Assembly: GCA_951406725.2 (NCBI GenBank)
Contig: OX597820.1
Location: forward strand, 50,530,001-50,594,000
Source of the DNA: Octopus vulgaris
Taxonomy: Eukaryota
DNA length: 64,000 nt
Direction: 5' to 3'
This document shows, in pieces, positions 15,672 through 58,367 of this stretch. The translations under genes were made by a program, and so were the position numbers. Below the pieces are notes generated by a model that saw nothing but the letters and a program-made list of their open reading frames with translations, made no database searches and was not told the origin of the DNA. Within the stretch, counting starts at the first letter, position 1; the number at the start of each line of letters is the position of its first letter.

Positions 15672-16027
15672 CTTCAGATCGAGTAGCATATCACGCAAGA
15701 TAGGTCCCTGAATAAGGGTTGTTGGAGGATGTTAAATGAAACACCCATATTTCAAAGGTGAATTAGCAAAACTCCAAATAATCCCTCTCATGGCTATGAT
15801 GCCCCTCCACTCCTTCTGCTCGTGATCAGAGATGGTCATATCGTCAGCTACTATGGGACATGCTCAACTGGTTAAGGTGAAGCAACTGACAAGCAAATCC
15901 GTTGTATTGAACAGAATATTTGCTGTAGCCCATCTTTTATACGAAGACAAAACATGTACATAATAATACTTCCAATCAGTTAAGATCAGAAGCCACGAAA
16001 GCCAGAGCCTGGTACTACATTAGGGCA
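15672..16027 (-). mobile_element. Partial copy of ~550-bp (AAT)n-associated element
   Basis: AGGTCCCTGAATAAGGGTTG...CTGCTCGTGATCAGAGATG...CTTCCAATCAGTTAAGATCAGAAGCC...AGGGCA matches ~53090-53446. Confidence 0.85.
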
Positions 16028-16434
16028 TATATATGTTTGGGGTGGGGATCGTCACAAATCTGCCTCGTGAGTTCTGACTAATTGATAGCTATCGACTAGA
16101 CTACACAAGTACAACTATGTAGACAAAGATCATAGGGTCATCATGAAAATTGTATCTAGATAATTATGCGGATGGTTAGCAGATATCAGTAATATAGTTT
16201 GTCCACAATTCTAATATTTTCGGCTACACAGAACACAAATGTTTTATACGTACAGTCGACCAAGGTACATAGCACACACAAGAAACTATCACTGGAAAGT
16301 AAATGAATCTTTCCCGGTGTAACAAATGTACAGAATCCGAATTGGAGAATTAGTTAAAATGGAGTGGAGAGGAGTAATGCTGGTTAGCCAAGAAAATCTC
16401 TATTAGATTACGGTCTATTACGTTTAGCATTGAA

Positions 16435-21033: not shown

Positions 21034-22978
21034 GTCAAGACGAAAAGAGCGATTCGATTGTAAGATAATTTATTGGTTGAACGATATTTCAACAGTAAGT
21101 CTGTCTTCGTCAAGTTCAAGACAAGAAGTGCAAAAAATACAAAATCATAAAAATTTGAACGTAAAATATGAACGAGAGCAACCAGCGTCCATGCGTTGAT
21201 GGAATGACATCATCAGTTTTTGAGTTACAATTTATAACAGACGAAAAGAGAAAAACAGAAAAAAAAAACAGAAAAAGAAGACGACAGAAAGATTTCCTCC
21301 AATGCGCCAAATTTGCAGCGGATATGAATTTTGCACGGCCAAAATTTCGGAATAGCTGGATGGCCTTCTACTCCCCTTCGCAAAACGATCAAGTTCCTAT
21401 ATTCAGGATACCTTTGATCTTGTATCTAAAATCAATAACTCTTTTAAACACCGAGGCCGTATCCAGAACTGATTTTGGTAACCATAACTGTTTCTTCCTT
21501 ATATCTCAATATTGAGCACAATGGAGTAGAAGAGTGCATGGATGCCTTCGAAAAGCGGTAAAACAAAAGTATTCCATCAACTTTCTCTTTAGATTATTGA
21601 GGTTTGTGTTAGAAAGATTTTACCACCAGCCGAAGTGTTGCGCCATGGGAACCCTCATGGCAGTTAATTTCGCTAATGTCTTTCATGATGAAATTCGATA
21701 CACGGTTACTGAAGACATTCAATTCCCTTCATAGTCATGAACCAATACGCTGGTTACGGTTCATTGATGACACATGTTTTGTCTGGGAAGGGCCACAAGA
21801 TAGTTTAATGGACTTCTTGCATTCCAGTGACTGTTGTGCTAGAAACTATGGCTTTAAGTCCAACATAAAATTTACGTCTAGTTTTTCAAAAACTAGCGTT
21901 AGATGTTTGGACACAAAAGTTTTCTGGAGGCCGAGTTGTTTTGCAAGCCACGTCATCCCAGATTCATCTCCACCGCCGCTCCGATCATCCACATCCTCTT
22001 ATTCAGTCAAATCCGAAATCCCTATTTTTAAAGATAAAACGGATTTGTACTGATAGGGGATTACTGGAAACATGCAAATACTTTTGTATATCATTATTTC
22101 AAACGCGGTTACAGTGAACCATGATTAAAGAAAATAGCAAATGAAATGGCTATGATTAGCAAAGATAGTCAATCCTTCGGCCATAATTTTAGTAAACACA
22201 ATAAAATAGATGATATAATTCCTTTAGCTGGCACCGACATTTAGCTGGCATTTCAAAAGTGTTGCATGAAAGTTACCAGCATGTGGCGAAAATTATCTTC
22301 GTTTCAAACAGATATTTCTTCAGCCGAATATTGTAGCCTTTAGACGGAATAAGAATATAAGAGAATTATCGACCTCTACATCTGACATAAAGAAAACGAA
22401 CATTGGAGTATCTGCACGTTGTATCTTAAAGAATAGCCGCAAGATAAGTAAGCCTTGTTCCTTGAACAACAAGAGTGAAGTGAATTCCATCAGAAACCCC
22501 ACCATTTGGTGTAAGCCGCAGAATGCACGAAACACAATTTATGTTGGTTGTACAATGGAACAATTAAACAAAAGGTTTAATGGGCACAGATTCTACGCCA
22601 GGCACAATAACAGTAGTTCGATAGAACTTACTGAACATTTCATTTCAGGCGGCTGCAATTTTGAAGAAGACTTGAAAGTGAATATTCTCAGAAAATATTT
22701 TGAATCTGCATCACTTTCACTTCTCAGAATGTATGAGGAGAAATATGTTCGCGGGTTATTAATATGACGCCCTGGAGGAATGAATAAGATGACAGGAGAA
22801 TATCATCAAAGTTATACAAAACTCTTTGGTTAAATATTCTTCTTTCTCTTTTTTTTTTCATTCTTCTTTTTTTTTCTGTTGAAATGTCGTTCAACTAATA
22901 AAATATCTTACAATCGAATTGCACTCTTCGACTTGACTATTTACATTTGTGAAGAGTTACGTCAATCCTTTTTAAAAT
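21033..22978 (+). mobile_element. Penelope-like element (RT plus GIY-YIG) with inverted pLTRs
   Basis: CAMGTLMAVNFAN, WLRFIDDTCFVW (ORF 21676-22053), NTIYVGCT...KRFNGHR...YEEKY (ORF 22462-22767). 63-bp inverted repeats at 21033-21095 and 22876-22938. Confidence 0.9.
21077..21119 (-). ncRNA. Minimal type I hammerhead ribozyme motif in inverted PLE pLTR
   Basis: Minus strand: TTGAAC-TTGACGAA-GACAG-ACTTA-CTGTT-GAAA-TATC-GTTCAA. 6-bp helix I, 5-bp helix II, AUC triplet. Core position 3 is U facing G8, so activity is uncertain. Confidence 0.65.
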
Positions 22979-23095: not shown

Positions 23096-23210
23096 TTGAT
23101 GATAATGATAAGGATGAAGATGATGATGATGAAGAGGATAATGATGATGATGATGATGATGATGATGATAATGATGATGATGATGGTGATGATGATGATG
23201 ATGATGATAA
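22980..23210. repeat. (GAT)n microsatellite
   Basis: Direct inspection. Confidence 0.95.
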
Positions 23211-23211
23211 A

Positions 23212-23759
23212 GGCTCTGATCCAGTACTAGGCAGTGACTCTCATAGCTTCTGATCTTAACAGATTGGAAGTGTTATCATGTACATTGTTTTGTCTTGGTA
23301 TAAAAGATGGGTTACAGCAAATATACTGCTCAGTACCACAGATTTACTTGTCAGTCGTCTGATCTTAACCAGTTGAGCATGTCCCTTACTGGCTGACGAT
23401 ATGTGTATCGCAGATAACGAGAAGTATTGGTGGAGCATAATAGCCATGTGCTGAGATGAATTCTTTGGGGATAGAATAATTCATCTCTATAAATATGGAG
23501 GGTTTGTTAACATCCTTAATACAGCCCTTATTGAGGGACTTTTGAGCGAGAAGGGCTAATCAACATAAAGAAAATTGTAACTTGTCCCCGCCTGCAAATT
23601 CATGTGTTGTTAATCTTGATATGAGATTACTGTGTCGCGCACATATAGTTGTGTTGCATGTGCCTGGCGTACCCTTATGAGACGCGTAGTCATGATTGGT
23701 ATACTGGGCTTCGTATATTTATATGTCACTTTCATGGCATGCACTGTTCTCTCACTCAG
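23212..23759 (+). mobile_element. ~550-bp (AAT)n-associated element
   Basis: Reverse complement of 52888-53446; flanked by (GAT)n and (ACT)n/(AAT)n. Confidence 0.85.
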
Positions 23760-27959: not shown

Positions 27960-28705
27960 CAGCTAAAGTGATGAAAAGTGGAGTAGACACAAAGTGCAGA
28001 TCTCGTAACGATGAGATTGAAACAGTGGACCACCTAATCTCTGGGTGTAAATTCTCAGCACCTTTAGAGTATAGATCAAGAATACATGACAGAATTTATC
28101 AATATGGACACTGGATAATAAGTCGGCGGCATAAAATCAAAATTGCTGAGGAATTGAAAAAGAGCCAGACATAGGTTGTAACTGAGGAAGAAAATGTAAT
28201 GATGTTTTGGGACTTTCCAGTATATACACACCAAACCTTAAACCAGATATTGTTGTGAAAAACACAAACAATAAAATCTGTTAAATGATTGATATGGACA
28301 TGCCTTATGATTATAATATTTCGGCAAAAGAGTTTAATAATCTCAGAAAAGATAAAGATTTGCTGATTGAAATCGAAAACATTTGGCAACTCAAGATGAT
28401 TTCTATACCAGTGATTGGAACGATCAAAAAGGTACTGAAAATTATTTGAGGGTGATCCCTGGCTTACCATCCATGCAGGAAGTGCAAAAGATTGTCTTAA
28501 CTAGTAGCTCACACGTGTTGAGGAAAGCATTTTTCTCTTTTTCTTCTTTCATTTCTCTTTCTGTCTTTCTATCCCTTTTCCCTATTAAATGGCTTTGTAA
28601 ATGCACGATTTGATGTGTTTATTTGAATGGCCTACCAATGTATAGAGTGAGTTTCTTTGCCGTAGGTGTTGGGAAGACACTCGGCAACAAATGGAAACAA
28701 ACTGA
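27960..28705 (+). mobile_element. 3' part of R4/Dong-type LINE (CCHC, REL, 3' UTR)
   Basis: KCRS...ETVDHLISGC...HDRI, PDIVV, IDMDMPYDYNISAKEF, VQKIVLTSSSHVLRKA; 3' UTR homologous to 53490-53600. Confidence 0.85.
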
Positions 28706-28719
28706 AAGAAAATAAGAAG

Positions 28720-29012
28720 AAAAGATAAAAAACTATGAGGATTTAAATTGAGAGACACGAAGGTTGTAGTTAATGGTGCACGTGGAATAGTTAATAGTGC
28801 ACTTGGAAGTATCAGCATTCAACTGCCAACATGGCTGAAAAAGATCGGTGCAAGTGTGAATGCAGAATACCTACAAAAATCAGCATAGCCAGTAAAACAA
28901 ATGTCACCTTAGTCTGCTGGCTGTGGACAGCTGACACTTTCATTCATACTCAGCAATACAAGCCGTGAGTTTTCATACAACAACAACAACAACAACAATA
29001 ATAATATTAATA
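28720..29012 (+). mobile_element. 3' end of another R4/Dong-type LINE family
   Basis: VVVNGARG...WLKKIGASVNAEYLQKSA resembles the REL C-terminus; ends in (CAA)n(AAT)n. Confidence 0.6.
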
Positions 29013-29014
29013 AT

Positions 29015-29560
29015 AGATGCAGTACCAAGCAGTTTCTCCCGTGGCTTCTAATCTTAACTGATTGGAAGTGTTATCATGTACATTGTTTTGTCTTGGTATA
29101 AAAGATGGGCTGCATGAAATATTCTGCTAAATACCATAGATTTGCTTGCCAATTGTTTGACCCTAACCAGTTGAGCATGTTCCTTAAAGGTTGACGATAT
29201 GTGCATCTCTGATCACGAGCAGAAGTAGTGGGGGAGCATCATAGCCATGTGTCCCGAGGGATTCTTTGGGGTTTGAATAATTCACTTCTGGAAACATAGG
29301 TGTTTCGTTAAACATACTTAAACAACCCTTATTCAGAGACCATTTGAGTGCGATGGGTTACTCGACCAGAGGAAAATTCTAACTGACCTGCAAGGTCATG
29401 TGCTGTTTATCTTGAAATGAGATCACCATGTTGCGCACATATGGTTGTGATGCATGTGCTTAGTGTACCCTTATCAGAAGGGTAGTCATGATGGGTATAC
29501 TGGCCTTCGTATATTTTACCCCAGTGTCAGTTTCATGGCAAGCACTGGACTCTCACTCAA
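29015..29560 (+). mobile_element. ~550-bp (AAT)n-associated element
   Basis: GATGCAGTACC...GATTGGAAGTGTTATCATGTAC...CTCTCACTCAATAATAG; collinear with 23212-23759. Confidence 0.88.
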
Positions 29561-29681
29561 TAATAGTAATATCTTTGTGCTGCTCTCTCACTCAGTACCT
29601 GCATCGGTGGCATTTGAAATCAGAACTTATTGATGGATGAAATGCCGCTGTACATTTTTCTCGATGTGCAATTGGTTGTTA

Positions 29682-32983: not shown

Positions 32984-33129
32984 CAAGGGCACTACAATAC
33001 CTGTACATTTTTCAAGGGCACTACCATAACCGTACGTGTTTCAAGGACACTACAATACCCGTTCATGCTTCAAGAGCACTACAATACCCGTGCATGTTTC
33101 AAGGGCACTACAATACCCGTACATGTTTC
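32984..33129 (+). repeat. 29-bp minisatellite, 5 copies
   Basis: Consensus CAAGGGCACTACAATACCCGTACATGTTT starting at 32984, 33013, 33042, 33071 and 33100. Confidence 0.92.
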
Positions 33130-40651: not shown

Positions 40652-40698
<47 letters not shown>

Positions 40699-40748
40699 TA
40701 TATAATATATATATATACAATATATGTATATATATATATATATAAATA

Positions 40749-40821
<73 letters not shown>

Positions 40822-40905
40822 AAGGGTGAAAAGGAACACACGAGTTGATATATATGAAAAAACAAGTAAAAAATAGAAAATGCTAAAATAATTTTATAGT
40901 GAACA

Positions 40906-40949
40906 TTTCAGTACCGGTTTCGGTCATTTTGAGACCTTTTCAACTGTAA
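40906..40949 (-). ncRNA. Minimal type I hammerhead ribozyme (left arm)
   Basis: Exact reverse complement of 41337-41380. Confidence 0.8.
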
Positions 40950-41336
40950 CGATTAAATAATTAAATTTAGAAAAATTAGAAGAAAAGTTTTTTTAAAAGA
41001 ATATTTCTATAGTAGTGTTCAGATTTAAGTGGCATTCTGCCTTTCTCGACTCCTTGTTTGCACTTGTGTGTTCGAGGTAGTTGTGAGTTCTTGGTAGGGT
41101 AGTAGAGGGAAGGCTGGTGAGGAAAGGGGGTGGGCACTCCCAGATTCTCCCACCCCCCTTTCCTCACCAGCCTTCCCTCTACTACCCTACCAAGAACTCA
41201 CAACTACCTCGAACACACAAGTGCAAACAAGGGAGTCAGAGAAAGGCAGAATGCCACTTAAATCTGAACACTACTATAGAAATATTCTTTTAAAAAAACT
41301 TTTCTTCTAATTTTTCTAAATTTAATTATTTAATCG

Positions 41337-41380
41337 TTACAGTTGAAAAGGTCTCAAAATGACCGAAACCGGTACTGAAA
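41337..41380 (+). ncRNA. Minimal type I hammerhead ribozyme (right arm)
   Basis: TTACAG-TTGAAAA-GGTC-TCAAAAT-GACC-GAAA-CCGG-TA-CTGAAA: U3-A8 core, 4-bp helix II, loopless palindromic helix III, GUA triplet. Predicted cut after 41374. Confidence 0.8.
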
Positions 41381-41426
41381 TGTTCACTATAAAATTATTT
41401 TAGCATTTTCTATTTTTTACTTGTTT

Positions 41427-41477
<51 letters not shown>

Positions 41478-46190: not shown

Positions 46191-47599
46191 ACACATATTC
46201 GCAAACTCATGTATATACGTATACACACATATATATATATATGTATGTCTGTATATATGTATAGATACATACATACATGCACACACACACGTGTGTGTGT
46301 GTAAACAGAGTTAGTGGTTATAATAAGCGACTAAGGGATAACATATTCGTATGTACTATCGGTATCCCTTAAATGTGTTTTCCCCGGGCATTGGGGTGCA
46401 GGCACACTATGCACGTAGAGTGCAAGTAATGACAGGATAAACAAGGATTTAACAGGAAACAAATAAAAATAATCAGAAACTGGAGTAAACCTCAGATTAA
46501 TAAGCACATCGATTAGACCACATTCATAGCTTATTCTTTTAACACAAATCATGACGTAACAAAGCTTACGGCTATTTCTGCATCCGTTTGTAAACGCTGC
46601 CTATAACTATTTGCGAAAATAAAAATCTTCATCTTCATAGGACATTCGAATTAAGGCACGAAGCTTTATCAGAGTAAAAAACAAGACCATCCAATATAAA
46701 CCAAGGGAAGAAGGAATAGGGAAGAAAACATGGCCTAGAAATGAAGTCTAGTAGCCCAATATATTAAAAACATATAATCTACCATGTTGTGGCTACGAGG
46801 TCCGTAACGTAAATGATCGAGGTAATAATGATCTAAGGAGTACCACAAGTGTGGGACAATATGTTTCAAAATTCACGAAAAGAAGTTATCAAAATAAAAA
46901 AAATAATACAAGCAAATTTACTGACATGATTATCAATGGGGAGTACTTATGCTAACGAAGTAAACGCAAGCAAAATGTATCCAGAACATTACCGTAGGGT
47001 GCTTAAGAAAATGTACTCATAGAAATATTAACATGAATCCCACCTATGGTACACAATGCGGCAAATCTAATTCCAGCGGTCTCTACAAATGATCAGTTGA
47101 AATTTGTATCGAGGTCGCAAGTTAAAACTGTTACAATGGATATGTCAATAAAAATAAATCAGAAAAGATAGTGTCCGGGGGAAGAAAACAATGATATAAG
47201 TGCTGCTTGGCCGTTTATGTCCTTCAGGAACTTAACCTTATAACATGCATTATGGAACTGTCAAAGAATAAATAGCCTCGGGTTATAGTTAAGGGGAGGC
47301 AATTACCACAGATAATACAGCAACTCATTGAGTTACTAAGAAATGGATTTGGAATTAACATCATATATAGTGAACTGTGGTAATAATTTGATATAAACAG
47401 GTACGCAAGAAATATCTATCTTATAGTTACACTACAATGCACAAATAAAAATCACTTACAATTAGGCGGTTAATATTTAAGACCAAATCACATGTTAGTT
47501 ATAATCAATTAATGAAAGTCACAAGTTTCTACATTATACTAAATATGCTTAATAAGCATTACTTAATCATTAAAGCTAGATAGTTCCTATTATAATATA

Positions 47600-47995
47600 C
47601 TAGCAGTATCGCCCGGCGTTGCTCGGGTTTGTAAGGGACATAACTATAAAGCATTTTTAGAGAGTTATAGCCAAAAAAAAGCAAAAAATGCATTAAAAAT
47701 GGGAAAAAAATATGGTAATTTTTTTCAAAAATCGTTGACTCATCGTAGACATTTTTAGAGAGTTACTTCCCTTATATACTAGCGAAAAAATGCATTAAAA
47801 TGGAAAAAAAAATATGGTAAATTATTTTTTAAATCGTAGACTCTTCGTAGACGCGCGCTAATACCCAGAAGGGCTCGATATGAATCACGACTATAAGATA
47901 CCCGGTTTTGGTTAAACTGCACCGCAAAATGTGGGAGTAGTTAGGAATCTAAATCGTAGGAGACAGACACACAACTTCACTTTTATATATAAAGA
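47600..47995 (-). mobile_element. Non-autonomous Helitron
   Basis: Minus strand: A^TCTTTATATATAAAAG...CCCGAGCAACGCCGGG (hairpin) CGATACTGCTAG^T. 5' TC, 3' CTAG, AT target, no TSD. Confidence 0.85.
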
Positions 47996-48524
47996 TATCA
48001 TTAAAAAGAGTATGTTGGCACTATATAGGTCCACTGGCAAATTAGTATTTTGAGTAAAGTTTCTTTCATTCAAACAAATTACTAAACATACTTCAAAACC
48101 AATAAAAACTACCGTAAGATTAGAATGAAATACTAATTGAATTTAATAACTAAGAATTATTAACTAAAGGTATATTAACTTAAAGTGGCTGCAGAAAGTA
48201 CTATTACAATCAACAGTCTGTGCTTATATTACATTACCCTACAATTAGATTCTTCTTATCAATAAATCTAATAATCAAAAAATTATAACCTAATAATATA
48301 TTAACTCTAACTGGGTGCAGACATGCAATTTCAATCAATTGGCATCACTTACAGTTCTACATGGTATATCAATTTTTTACAAATATCTCCTGGTAAGTCC
48401 GGCTAACATAGTACAAAAACAAGCAGTCACGTACAATGTAGAGTGGAAGAAGCTGGACATAGAGTACAAAAATTTAAAGATGAAATAACATATAATATAA
48501 TCAAAATAAGTTGAATAAATCATA

Positions 48525-52770: not shown

Positions 52771-52887
52771 TCAAATAATCTATAGCCACTTTGTACTTCA
52801 TCGTGAAATTTCGAAAGAGGTATCCTCCTCCTCCTCCTCCTCCTCCTCATCATCATCATCATCACCATCATCATCATCGTTTTTATT

Positions 52888-53446
52888 GTTGAGTGAGAGA
52901 GCAGTGCATGCCATCAAAATGACACTGGAGTAAAATATACGAAGCCCAGTATACCCATTATGATTCGCCATCTGATTAGGGTACACCAGTCACACGCATC
53001 ACAACAATATGTGCGCGAGATGGTGATCACATGTCAAGATAAACAGCGCATAACATTGCAGGTGGGGCCCAGTTAGAATTTTCTTCTGGTCGAGTAAACC
53101 ATTCCACTCAAAAGGTCCCTGAATAAGAGTTGTTTAAGGATGTTGAACAAAGCACCCATGTTTCCAGAGGTGAATTATTCAAACCCCAAAGAATCCCTCT
53201 CAACACATGGCTATGATGCTCTTCTACTATTTCTGCTCGTGATCAGAGATGCATATATCGTCAGCCAGTAAGGGACATGCTCAACTGGTTATGGTCAAAC
53301 AAACGACAAGCAAATCTGTGGTATTGAGCAGAATATTTGGTGTAGCCCATCTTTTATACCAAGACAAAACAATATACATGATAACACTTCCAATCAGCTA
53401 AGATCAGAAGCCACAAGAACCACTGCCTAGTACTGTATCGGGGCAT
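52888..53446 (-). mobile_element. ~550-bp (AAT)n-associated element, full length
   Basis: TTGAGTGAGAGAGCAGTGCATGCC...GGGGCA, flanked by (ATC)n and (ATT)n. Confidence 0.88.
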
Positions 53447-53489
53447 TTATTATTATTATCATTATTATTATTATTATTATTATTATTAC

Positions 53490-53995
53490 TTTTTTTTTCT
53501 TCTTTCAAATTTTCTTCCATTTCTTGCCGAGTGTCTTCCCGACTCCTAGGGCAAAGAAACTCATAGTGTATATTGGTAGGCCATTAAACCAAACTCAGTA
53601 GTTCGTTCATTTTTTTTTTTTTTTATTTTTTTTTTTTAAAGTTAAATTAAAATGCATGAGCAGCAACAGTTCTCACATCGACAATGCTCTTCTCAATACG
53701 TGTGATGTACCAGTTAAGACAATCTTTTGCACTTTTTGCAGGGATGGTAAGCCAGGGATCATTCTCATATAATTTTCGGTTCCCTTCTTGATCATTCCTA
53801 GTGCTCCTACGATCACTGGTATTGTAACCGCCTTGAGATGCCACATTTTCTCAATTTCAATGAGTAGGTCTTTATATTTTCTGAGCTTGTCAAACTCTTT
53901 CGCTGAGATATTATGATCACAGGGGATGCTCATGTCGATCAAAAAGCAAACTTATTATGAGCACAGGGGATGCTCATGTCGATCAATAAGCAAAC

Positions 53996-54520: not shown

Positions 54521-54993
54521 GCTTTTCAGTGTAATTATTTTAATATGTTTTTTTCTATTAATTATATTTGTATATGGTTTACTAAATTCTCTATCGAAAG
54601 GATTGTGCTTCCAATTTATTGGCTTTACGTCCTGCTTTGGTCAAAGAGAATCATATATTTCTCTGTGGTTTAGGTATATTTATTTTTGGTTTCGTGATTT
54701 GATATATAACTTTCTTTATTCATATACACAGGTGCGTAGATACTCACACAGAAGCACAAATACCTACAAACACATACACAGAGATATGCATTGTATCGCA
54801 CTGGTAGTTTTTATGAGAGTACAATGTTTGCATAATTTTGCGGGGTGAGTTTCTTTTAGTATCAAATGTATGTATGCACTTATATGTGTTGTACGCGTAA
54901 CAGTTTCCAGGAATTCATGTTTGACGTTTGTCATTTTTCTTTTTCGTGGGAGAGTTGACATAGAGACAATTGGGTTTTCTATTTTATTACAAA

Positions 54994-55381
54994 CTAGCAG
55001 TATCGCCCGGCGTTGCTCGGGTTTGTAAGGGAAATAACTATATCAGCATTTTTAGAGAGTTATAGCCAAAAAATAGCAAAAAATGCATTAAAAATGGGAA
55101 AATGTGATGGTAATTTTTTTTTAAATCGTTGACTCACCGTAAACATTTTTAGAGAGTTACTTCCCTTAGCGAAAAAATGCATTAAAATGCAAAAATATGA
55201 TAGTAAATTATTTTTTAAATCGTAAACTCATCGTAGACGCGCGCTAATACCCAGAAGGGCTCGATATGAATCACGACTATAAGATACCCGCTTTTGGTTA
55301 CACTGCACCGCAAAATGTGGGAGTAGTTAGGAATCTAAATCGTAGGAGACAGACACACAACTTGACTTTTATATGTAAAGA
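54994..55381 (-). mobile_element. Non-autonomous Helitron (second copy)
   Basis: Highly similar to 47600-47995, with the same TC/CTAG termini and AT target. Confidence 0.85.
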
Positions 55382-55949
55382 TATTTGCATCTCCGTAATT
55401 CTCCTACGAAAGACCTGATTGTTATATCGTAATTTGTAACCTGCACACAGTTCATGATATATTTTGAAGATCAACTTGTTTCTCTATGTGCAACGCGGCC
55501 TGATCCAGTTCCTTATCTTTAACAAGTGGAAACGTATTTCGTTTCTATTTTACTTTTGTCTCACATATTGCTACAAGAATCTATATTCAGAACTAGTTTG
55601 CGCAAGTGTCGAGCATTTTATTATTTCGAATTTAAATATGCTTTCACAATAGTCATCTTCAAATCAATTTTGCTGGACCGTTCCTTTATTTCATCTGCTA
55701 ATATGCAGGAAATGACATGTATTTTGTGCATATCGTCTTTGAAACTTCTCCTAATTGCCCCAATTTATTTTTCTTCCTTTCTTCCTTCTTTCTTTCAATT
55801 CTGTAGCTTTTAGATAATGTGCTTTCAGGAAGTTTCAACTCATAAAATATTTATATCTATTTTCTGTTGTAGATTGTGCGTTTGTTGATGCATTGTGAAT
55901 CTACTTAGTTGAGTGAATTTCCTTAGTTGATTTTCTCTTTGTACATTAT

Positions 55950-57078: not shown

Positions 57079-58367
57079 TTAGATAGGAAACTAAGTTCCC
57101 ACGGTATTTTAAAATTAATTTTTTTTTAAGGTTTAATAAAAAATAACAACTAATTAATCAACCCTTGTTGTTTACAACTTCTTCCTAACATTCAACAAGA
57201 TTTTCAATACCTTGTTGGTAGAAATCACTCGATTTCGACTCGAAAAATTGATCCAACCAAGCTCTCAATTCTCCATCAGTATTGAACGAAAATTCCGCGC
57301 ATAGCATCTGAAAGAGATCAAAAGATGTAGAAATACAGTTTGTGCCAAATCAGGAGAATACGGTGTGACAGCATTTCCCAGCCATACGTTTGAATGGCTT
57401 ACTTGGTCATATTGGCAATATGAGGGCGGGAGTTGTCGTGCAGCAGAAGAACTCCATGCTGACGATTAGGTCTTTTTCTTGAATAGCCGTGTTGAGTCTT
57501 TCCATCTGTTGAACATAGAACCCCGATTTGACCGTTTGGTTCCGTTCAAACATTTCGTAATGGATAATCCCTTCCTAGTCTCACCATACGCACAACATCA
57601 GTTTAGGCGGATGAAGATCTTGTTTCACGCGCGGTGCCGCTTGTTTAACGGGTCTAAACCAGTCCTTACTTTGCTTCATATTGATATACAGGCACCATTT
57701 TTCGTCGCCAGTAATAATTCGGTAAAGAAATCGATGCTTGTGTCCATGGGTTGAGCCATGACGAGAAAGCAAACCAACGGAGATAGTGGCTTGTTGATTT
57801 TGTTATCATTTAAAGCATGCGGAACTAAATGCTCCATACCTCTGAACCTTTCTCATCGAGTGAAGATGCTTCTCTATAGCAGTGTGGGGGCATTCCATTT
57901 TCTCTGCCAGTTCCCTTATCGTTTGACGAGAATTTTTGTGCAAAAGTTGGTTTAATCGCTCTTCAACGAGCTCAACTGCTCGGCCGAAACGAGGTGCATC
58001 TTTGAGGTTAAACTTTCCATTTTTGAACTTGGCATACCAATTCCGAGCGGTTCTTTGAGCTATGGCACCCTCTGCATATACAGCACGAATGTCACGAGCA
58101 GCTTTTGCGGCCTTAGAACCTTGATTAAAAACAAAAAGAAGGAGGTGTCGAAAATGCTCGTTTTTCTTAACTTGACATTCCATTTTAATGATCTGAAAAT
58201 AAACAAAAATTAACTAAAATTAACTAGAAAAAAAAAAAAGATTCCAAAATGATTCGAAAATAGAATTCTCCAAAAAAGGTAGATTCCAAAATTTAAAAAC
58301 GCAATAACTTCCAAAATTAAAAAAAAAAAACAACAAAAAAACGGTGGGAACTTAGTTGCCAACCCAA
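57079..58367 (-). mobile_element. Full-length mariner element with transposase pseudogene
   Basis: ORF 57806-58183 MECQVKKNEHFRH...DAPRFGR; ORF 57581-57772 IITGDEKWCLY...KLMLCVW. TIRs TTAGATAGGAAACTAAGTTCCCAC and GTGGGAACTTAGTTGCCAACCCAA with TA on both sides. Confidence 0.93.

What the first reader, a model, noticed from the sequence alone, without database searches (positions are those of the whole stretch)
41337..41380. Intact-looking U3-A8 variant minimal hammerhead with loopless palindromic helix III
Seen: CAG-TTGAAAA-GGTC(TCAAAAT)GACC-GAAA-CCGG-TA-CTG. The canonical CUGANGA core appears as UUGAAAA, a compensatory C3-G8 to U3-A8 swap, which argues against a chance match. Known: PLE-type minimal hammerheads with palindromic helix III are proposed to cleave as dimers. 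Inference: each strand has only one sense copy, so dimerisation would need two RNAs in trans, for example plus- and minus-strand transcripts of this palindrome.
Basis: partly seen in the sequence, partly recalled or inferred. Interest (0 to 1): 0.7.

Follow-up and report, generated by a model that had tools for sequence, protein, structure and literature searches.

The report
Inverted retroelement pair with minimal hammerhead
A complete small hammerhead-ribozyme motif sits near the end of a multi-copy repeat that lies here as two back-to-back copies; it is likely the ordinary, already described ribozyme tag of a Penelope-like jumping gene, and is predicted to be locked in a long hairpin in any RNA that reads through both copies.

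Summary
The motif is real: helix I, core UUGAAAA, 4-bp helix II, GAAA, palindrome ACCGGU and the cut site after 41374 are as described. Equally good motifs arose 6 times in 1000 simulated windows. It lies 57 nt from the 3' end of a multi-copy, apparently 5'-truncated repeat, present as a head-to-head pair (41132-41430 and 40856-41134) between (TA)n arrays. Across the family the only listed changes in the motif are at the helix II closing pair (G-C to G-U or A-U) and in loop II. U3-A8 cores, short palindromic helix III, opposite-strand pairs and dimer cleavage are all published for Penelope-like elements (PMC4209133). No RT or endonuclease could be tied to this family, so membership is inferred. 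A different element at 21034-22940 has RT-like and GIY-YIG-like remnants, the same inverted layout and another minimal hammerhead. U3 can also mispair with A17. Verdict: new member of a known kind, low interest.

The parts
41340..41377 (+). Minimal type I hammerhead: helix I (41340-42/41375-77), core U3-A9 (41343-49), helix II (41350-53/41361-64), G12-A15.1 (41365-68), palindrome ACCGGU (41368-73), A17 at 41374; predicted cut after 41374
40909..40946 (-). Identical mirror copy of the hammerhead in the inverted arm; predicted cut after 40912 on the minus strand
41132..41430 (+). Right arm: 3' end of a multi-copy repeat; the family continues upstream of 41132 in other copies, so this copy is 5'-truncated
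   Evidence: depth gradient, loose ends before 41132 in 4 of 4 runs, X4 record 17 identical over 41132-41334 with 173 further letters
40856..41134 (-). Left arm: inverted copy truncated 17 nt further (it starts at the equivalent of 41149); 287 of 287 aligned bases identical to the right arm (comparison includes 8 nt of AT repeat), three 1-nt gaps
41132..41148 (.). Inversion junction: 3-nt GGG shared by both arms (41132-41134) and a 14-nt unpaired spacer (41135-41148) from the element's own sequence
   Evidence: position read by eye from the window and the loose-end table
41307..41342 (+). Candidate spliceosomal 3' splice site (branch-like motif at 41307-41311, T-rich tract, AG at 41341-41342) overlapping the 5' strand of helix I; untested
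   Evidence: 145 of 6863 AG in the window score as well; D. virilis precedent in PMC4209133; no splice joint
41359..41403 (+). ATG at the loop II/helix II border opening a 14-codon frame that stops at 41401-41403; significance unknown
   Evidence: the Anolis PLE ORF starts at stem II
41431..41474 (.). (AT)22 at the right 3' end, likely the target site
   Evidence: (TA)-rich loose ends behind 41412-41413 in 3 of 4 runs
40657..40855 (.). Left flank: long (TA)n (40657-40822), a 25-nt non-repeat stretch (40823-40847; a possible PLE 'tail', untested), then (AT)4 at the arm end
   Evidence: tail described in PMC8557442

Best explanation
The motif is a minimal type I hammerhead near the 3' end of a multi-copy repeat that is likely a Penelope-like retroelement (or its non-autonomous derivative), present here as a head-to-head pair of truncated copies; it is predicted to cleave only slowly and only as a dimer, and would be locked in a long hairpin in any RNA that reads through this locus. 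Shown: the motif; the inverted pair with a 3-nt junction overlap; the (TA)n flanks; the multi-copy family with more depth at its 3' end; changes within the motif limited to helix II and loop II. Inferred: both arms were copied from one RNA in one target-primed insertion, with a template switch or re-priming at the GGG overlap. Inferred from published PLEs: in a tandem master copy two hammerheads on one transcript swap strands, pair ACCGGU with ACCGGU and cut after A17, perhaps with help from the element's protein. At this locus the motif is a passenger, not a device.
For: Motif beyond chance. Family: 20 of 24 listed runs from 10 studies and 5 organism labels hold the arm (3 are flagged as possible sources). 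3484, 1949 and 1255 contigs of graded likeness were laid in three large runs; summed depth in X1 is about 1e6 over 41225-41360 against 30-49 for its lowest-depth listed contigs, and falls to about 1e5 towards 41132. Of 15 listed substitutions, 2 fall in the motif, and they are the partners of one helix II pair: 41364 C>T (6.5-20% of depth, G-U) and 41350 G>A (0.3-4%). Matching depths imply X4 records 20 and 21 carry both (A-U). The palindrome stops at the element's own 3' ends and the flanks differ. Published PLE features match: U3-A8 core, small palindromic helix III, opposite-strand pairs 100-700 bp apart, inverted 5'-truncated copies and microsatellite targets. A second element in the window (21034-22940) has RT-like and GIY-YIG-like remnants, an inverted terminal copy and a minimal hammerhead 49 nt from its end, against 57 nt here. 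The dimer is predicted more stable than two monomers (-22.9 against -15.4 kcal/mol).
Against: No RT or GIY-YIG sequence was tied to this family: the three forward frames of the arm gave 0 Pfam hits, no homologue in two searches and two unrelated repeat-driven hits in the third. The two elements share no significant similarity, so the neighbour is an analogy only. Invariance of the core and helices I and III (0 of 23 sites against 8 of 104 flanking sites) is not significant (p 0.19). The paired-change probability (about 0.01) is post hoc and rests partly on contigs of depth under 5. The ATG frame stops after 14 codons. No cleavage was measured. U3-A17 mispairing is predicted at 0.44-0.83 in the dimer, and single-arm RNAs of 193-301 nt form helix II with probability only 0.24-0.33. 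Summed contig depth is not a copy number.
Confidence: 0.78

Rival explanations
1. The repeat is a non-LTR retrozyme or similar short non-coding unit that spreads as cleaved, circular monomers, and this is an inverted pair of partial monomers.
For: No coding signal in the arm. Multi-copy and AT-rich. Loop II and the strand upstream of helix I resemble the canonical HH9 model. Retrozymes are proposed to derive from PLE pLTRs.
Against: None of the 6 listed joints goes back from the 3' end to the 5' part; 3' ends run into (TA)n; depth falls towards the 5' end; the family extends at least 173 nt beyond 41132. Helix I has 3 contiguous pairs rather than the canonical 6, and its distal partners at 41381-41382 are variable. 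A longer tandem unit cannot be excluded from a 332-nt window.
Confidence: 0.1
2. The hammerhead and its repeat are real, but the second, inverted arm is an assembly or library fold-back artefact.
For: The arms have no substitutions, only three 1-nt gaps. No listed contig spans the junction, and depth at 41105-41128 could come from variant contigs laid on the left arm.
Against: The symmetry stops at the element's 3' ends and the flanks differ. The centre is asymmetric, with the element's own 14-nt spacer and a 3-nt overlap. The same layout is published for PLEs and is seen, diverged to 88%, at 21034-22940.
Confidence: 0.06
3. One reading: divergent transcription from promoters inside the two arms makes two same-sense RNAs at one locus, which dimerise in trans through ACCGGU and cleave each other.
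For: The two outward RNAs would be identical, not complementary. Inter-strand helix III and helix I are predicted to form. PLE pLTRs are reported to hold an internal promoter.
Against: Predicted Kd 1.6-3.9e-5 M; U3-A17 mispairing; read-through RNA forms a hairpin. Published minimal dimers cleave weakly even in cis, and no RNA ends were found at the cut site of the Anolis element. No promoter or transcript is shown here.
Confidence: 0.04
4. A chance arrangement of bases with no hammerhead ancestry.
For: Monomer stability is unremarkable, the Rfam score is far below gathering, and core invariance is not significant.
Against: 6 in 1000 windows by simulation; 0 of 12 pattern-only hits have helix II; the paired helix II change; the position matches PLE hammerheads.
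Confidence: 0.02

Closest known systems
Metazoan PLE hammerheads with a small palindromic helix III (Cervera and de la Pena 2014, PMC4209133; shrimp, fly, mosquito and rotifer rows of Fig. S3)
   Same: Type I, short helix I, palindromic insertion in helix III, U-rich upstream and AU-rich downstream flanks, near the element's 3' end. The M. japonicus row also has a 4-bp helix II, no bulge after A9, a CG insertion and A17.
   Different: The rows with an insertion all carry C3-G8; here the core is U3-A8.
U3-A8 minimal hammerheads of S. mansoni Cercyon PLEs (PMC4209133); natural U3-A8 cores (Perreault 2011, PMC3088659)
   Same: The same 7-nt core UUGAAAA occurs in row S. mansoni(4), which is PLE-associated. 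Opposite-strand pairs 100-700 bp apart are described.
   Different: Those have no helix III insertion and a bulge after A9. The three U3 rows among the 56 have G or U at position 17, so only this one has the competing U3-A17 Watson-Crick pair.
PLE inverted insertion structures (Craig 2021, PMC8557442; Cotesia example, Fig. S4A legend of PMC4209133)
   Same: 5'-truncated copy with an inverted truncated copy at its 5' end, microsatellite target, possible one-sided tail.
   Different: Here both arms are under 300 bp and hold no recognisable ORF.
Anolis Poseidon (PAc) hammerhead (Frangieh 2024, PMC11167929)
   Same: Hammerhead close to the insertion 3' end, an ATG at stem II, AT-rich targets.
   Different: PAc has C3-G8 and an open ORF, and was shown to be protein-assisted and dispensable for insertion in vitro; none of this is tested here.
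Non-LTR retrozymes (PMC7229834; bioRxiv 10.64898/2026.07.22.740005)
   Same: Non-coding, AT-rich, multi-copy, type I hammerhead.
   Different: No head-to-tail array was seen, the hammerhead is minimal rather than canonical, and the arrangement is inverted.

Membership tests
Hammerhead ribozyme (type I) | Core with a 3-8 pair, G5, A6, A9, G12-A14, A15.1-U16.1 and H17 | tested here: met
   U3-A8 is a documented variant
Hammerhead ribozyme (type I) | Helices I and II can form; changes among copies keep the pairs | tested here: met
   G-C to G-U and (inferred from matching depths) A-U at 41350/41364; no listed change in helix I
Hammerhead ribozyme (type I) | Site-specific self-cleavage | not testable with these tools
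   needs an assay; predicts a competing U3-A17 pair
Rfam Hammerhead_HH9 (RF02275) | Reaches the gathering score of 52 bits | tested here: not met
   19.7 bits
PLE-type minimal hammerhead | Palindromic positions 15.2-16.2 and loop 3; helix III forms only in a dimer | tested here: met
   ACCGGU; inter-strand pair probabilities 0.55-0.99
PLE-type minimal hammerhead | Unpaired nucleotide between 9 and 10.1 (in most members) | tested here: not met
   absent (offset 0); also absent in 2 published rows, M. japonicus and S. kowalevskii(2), so not strictly defining
Penelope-like element (EN+) | PLE-type RT and GIY-YIG endonuclease ORF upstream of the 3' repeat | tested here: inconclusive
   the copy is truncated; the three forward frames gave no relevant hit; no host genome held
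Penelope-like element (EN+) | Dispersed, 5'-truncated copies in tandem or inverted arrangement with the hammerhead near the 3' end | tested here: met
Penelope-like element (EN+) | Microsatellite or AT-rich insertion bias, optional one-sided tail | tested here: inconclusive
   (TA)n at both ends and in loose ends of 3 of 4 runs; the 25-nt tail candidate was not verified
Penelope-like element (EN+) | Retained spliceosomal intron and internal promoter in the pLTR | tested here: inconclusive
   acceptor-like site at 41341-41342 among the top 2.1% of AG; no joint seen; promoter not tested
Non-LTR retrozyme | Head-to-tail tandem units, each with a hammerhead | tested here: not met
   no tandem array at the locus and no go-back joint among the 6 listed; units longer than the laid stretch would be missed
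Non-LTR retrozyme | Abundant linear and circular monomer RNAs | not testable with these tools
   only contigs were available

The most novel reading that the evidence does not exclude
The family tunes its ribozyme by design. U3 with A17 gives an off state (helix I extended through the core), a splice acceptor overlapping helix I would swap the 5' strand on splicing, and head-to-head insertions would let divergent promoters deliver two same-sense RNAs that cleave each other in trans at the locus. That would be a splicing- and transcription-gated hammerhead switch present in many copies in one animal lineage.
Probability: 0.05. Interest if true: 0.65.

Novelty: new member of a known kind. Interest (0 to 1): 0.22.

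Why it matters
Modest. It adds one more abundant family of PLE-type minimal hammerheads. Its exact combination (U3-A8, 2-nt palindromic insertion, no 9.1 bulge, A17) is not among the 56 rows of Fig. S3 in PMC4209133. What PLE hammerheads do in vivo is still open, and a multi-copy family with natural helix II variants and a built-in U3-A17 mispair is a convenient substrate for testing dimer and protein-assisted cleavage. A real 287-bp fold-back could also be a source of double-stranded RNA if transcribed. None of this would surprise a specialist.

Tried and rejected
No whole genome is held, so copies could be studied only through Logan contigs. No RNA holder was listed; X4 is only guessed to be RNA, gave 6 contigs and says nothing on expression, ends or splicing. 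The exact-core pattern found 0 matches in viral contigs. The degenerate pattern found 12 metagenome loci, all rejected as chance for lack of helix II. The whole-window Rfam search listed no hammerhead among its best 150 of 295 matches (145 not shown); the miRNA matches are all below gathering and come from microsatellites and the fold-back. Protein searches of the arm's three forward frames found no PLE link; the reverse frames were translated but not searched. Pfam missed the neighbour's RT-like and GIY-YIG-like fragments, as did a word-based search; only the Atlas feature search pointed to them, which shows how weak such blanks are. Rfam also missed the second hammerhead. CpG decay as the cause of the C>T changes was considered and not favoured, because the matching G>A changes at 41336 and 41365 and any change in the CpG of the palindrome are not listed. 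Three look-ups in earlier scan findings returned nothing. Lunse et al. 2017 on PLE hammerhead variants could not be read and may already cover this combination. The host looks like a cephalopod from its microsatellite load and a SINE that I recall; this is recalled, not tested.

Full report
Observation. The window is AT-rich, microsatellite-laden, almost non-coding animal-like DNA. The quoted motif is present at 41340-41377: helix I CAG/CTG, core TTGAAAA, helix II GGTC/GACC with a 7-nt loop, GAAA, CCGG, TA. A15.1 to U16.1 read ACCGGU, a perfect palindrome that cannot close on itself. Strict matches arose 0 times in 200 simulated windows, and matches as good as the site 6 times in 1000. Twelve metagenome loci picked by the core and helices I and III alone had helix II of 0-2 bp in 12 of 12 cases. 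Rfam's HH9 model aligns here at 19.7 bits against a gathering score of 52. The monomer is not unusually stable.

Surroundings. The motif lies in a fold-back of about 590 bp. The arms are identical at 287 of 287 aligned bases, with three 1-nt gaps, so an identical hammerhead lies on the minus strand at 40909-40946. The symmetry ends at short or long (AT)n runs, and the flanks beyond differ. No genome is held. The arm is held by 20 of 24 listed runs from 10 studies and 5 organism labels, 3 of them possible sources of this DNA.

The family. I laid 4 of those 20 runs on 41105-41436. The three large runs gave 3484, 1949 and 1255 contigs with likeness from over 99% to under 90%. Summed depth in X1 is about 1e6 over 41225-41360 against 30-49 for its lowest-depth listed contigs. 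Allowing up to 31-fold for contig overlap, I read this as hundreds to tens of thousands of copies; the tool warns that it is no copy number. Depth drops about tenfold towards 41132, and in 4 of 4 runs the family continues upstream of 41132 with one shared sequence. This copy is therefore 5'-truncated. The right arm starts at 41132, the left arm ends at 41134, and they share GGG around a 14-nt spacer. Loose ends behind 41412-41413 run into TA repeats in 3 of 4 runs. None of the 6 listed joints goes back from the 3' end to the 5' part.

Variation in the motif. Of 15 listed substitutions, 2 fall in 41340-41377, and they are partners in the helix II closing pair: 41364 C>T (10%, 20% and 6.5% of depth in X1, X7 and X11) and 41350 G>A (0.3%, 4%, 1.3%). 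One 2-nt deletion is listed, in loop II. Matching depths imply that X4 records 20 and 21 carry both changes (A-U); both contigs have depth under 5, though 18 X11 loose ends show the same A. A diverged subfamily seen in the loose ends keeps helix I and the U3-A8 core. Five variable sites lie at 41381-41387, just 3' of the motif. Against over-reading: 0 of 23 constrained sites against 8 of 104 flanking sites gives p 0.19, and the chance that two sites are partners (about 0.01) is post hoc.

How it likely works. Folding two copies together gives the swapped dimer, with helix III and helix I between strands (-22.9 against -15.4 kcal/mol). Binding is weak (Kd 1.6-3.9e-5 M), and U3 pairs with A17 with probability 0.44-0.83, which would extend helix I into the core. 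An RNA across the whole fold-back forms a hairpin of -488.7 kcal/mol with no hammerhead helices, and single-arm RNAs form helix II with probability only 0.24-0.33. These are nearest-neighbour predictions without tertiary contacts. I infer that the working context is a tandem master element, where two motifs share one transcript, and that this insertion is a passenger. Plus and minus RNAs that start near the centre would be same-sense and could in principle pair, but nothing shows that they exist.

Membership. No coding link was found for the arm, so 'Penelope-like' rests on layout. The window supplies an internal parallel. At 21034-22940 a decayed element has RT-like motifs and a fragment whose nearest Atlas clusters carry GIY-YIG (19-56% of members, score 0.94-0.95; one set of 13 of 30 hits has no common family) or HTH_animal/RVT_1 (11-14%, in 10 of 30 hits). 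It has an inverted terminal copy (88% over 69 nt) beside (TAA)n and a minimal hammerhead with U3-G8 whose cut site is 49 nt from the end, against 57 nt here. The two families are not similar in sequence. Two further PLE-like hints are untested: an acceptor-like AG at 41341-41342 overlapping helix I (145 of 6863 AG score as well), and an ATG at 41359 whose frame stops after 14 codons.

What is in print. PMC4209133 (parts 1-2 of 4 of the text and parts 1-2 of 3 of the supplement read) reports about 1,300 U3-A8 motifs in S. mansoni, palindromic helix III variants, pairs on opposite strands 100-700 bp apart, an intron ending at helix I in D. virilis, no monomer cleavage and weak dimer cleavage. 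Of its 56 aligned motifs, 2 have U3-A8 and 1 has U3-G8; none combines U3 with a helix III insertion or with A17, and none is from a cephalopod. PMC3088659 (passages) reports natural U3-A8 cores and cites their activity in vitro. PMC8557442 (passages) describes inverted truncated copies, tails and microsatellite targets. PMC11167929 (parts 1-2 of 4) shows a protein-assisted PLE hammerhead that is dispensable for insertion in vitro. PMC7229834 (passages) and bioRxiv 10.64898/2026.07.22.740005 (parts 1-3 of 5; supplements closed) define retrozymes. PMC6765202, PMC13282606 and PMC7151607 were seen as passages only. Searches for 'hammerhead' with 'U3-A8' and with 'Penelope-like' and 'Octopus' listed one paper each, and I saw no description of this family in either. 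Lunse et al. 2017 was not available (seen only as a citation) and may cover this variant.

Verdict. The hammerhead motif is real, likely the 3'-end ribozyme of a Penelope-like family, in a known inverted insertion form. New member of a known kind; interest 0.22.

Noticed in passing
window 21034-22940: Decayed Penelope-like element on the + strand: RT-like motifs near 21613-22050, a GIY-YIG-like fragment at 22270-22764 and a half-deleted hammerhead near 22877-22895. An inverted terminal copy at 21034-21102 and beyond carries an intact-looking minimal hammerhead (minus strand, core at 21113, U3-G8, 6-bp helix I, 5-bp helix II, bulge after A9) next to (TAA)n.
   Followed up: partly
window 40823-40847: A 25-nt non-repeat stretch between the left arm's (AT)4 and the long (TA)n; it could be the one-sided PLE tail or simply part of the target site.
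   Followed up: no
window 41390-41403: A second acceptor-like T-rich tract ending in AG just 3' of the hammerhead; it coincides with the stop of the 14-codon frame. If used, the hammerhead would lie inside an intron.
   Followed up: no
window 15672-16032, 23209-23758, 28999-29565, 52884-53464: Dispersed repeat of about 550 bp, 78-85% alike, in both orientations, flanked by trinucleotide microsatellites; no hammerhead was found in it by my descriptor.
   Followed up: no
   Followed up: no
window 57809-58213 (-): Mos1-type transposase HTH fragment (PF17906, E 4.3e-18): a mariner remnant.
   Followed up: no
window 28286-28529 and 53685-53941: Two 77%-alike pieces beside (TTA)n arrays that look by eye like the 3' end of a non-LTR retroelement ORF; Pfam gave no hit.
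   Followed up: no
window 47590-47998 and 54984-55384: A second dispersed repeat in pieces, 93-96% alike, so younger than the others.
   Followed up: no
window 32984-33129: Minisatellite of five 29-bp units, 85% matches.
   Followed up: no
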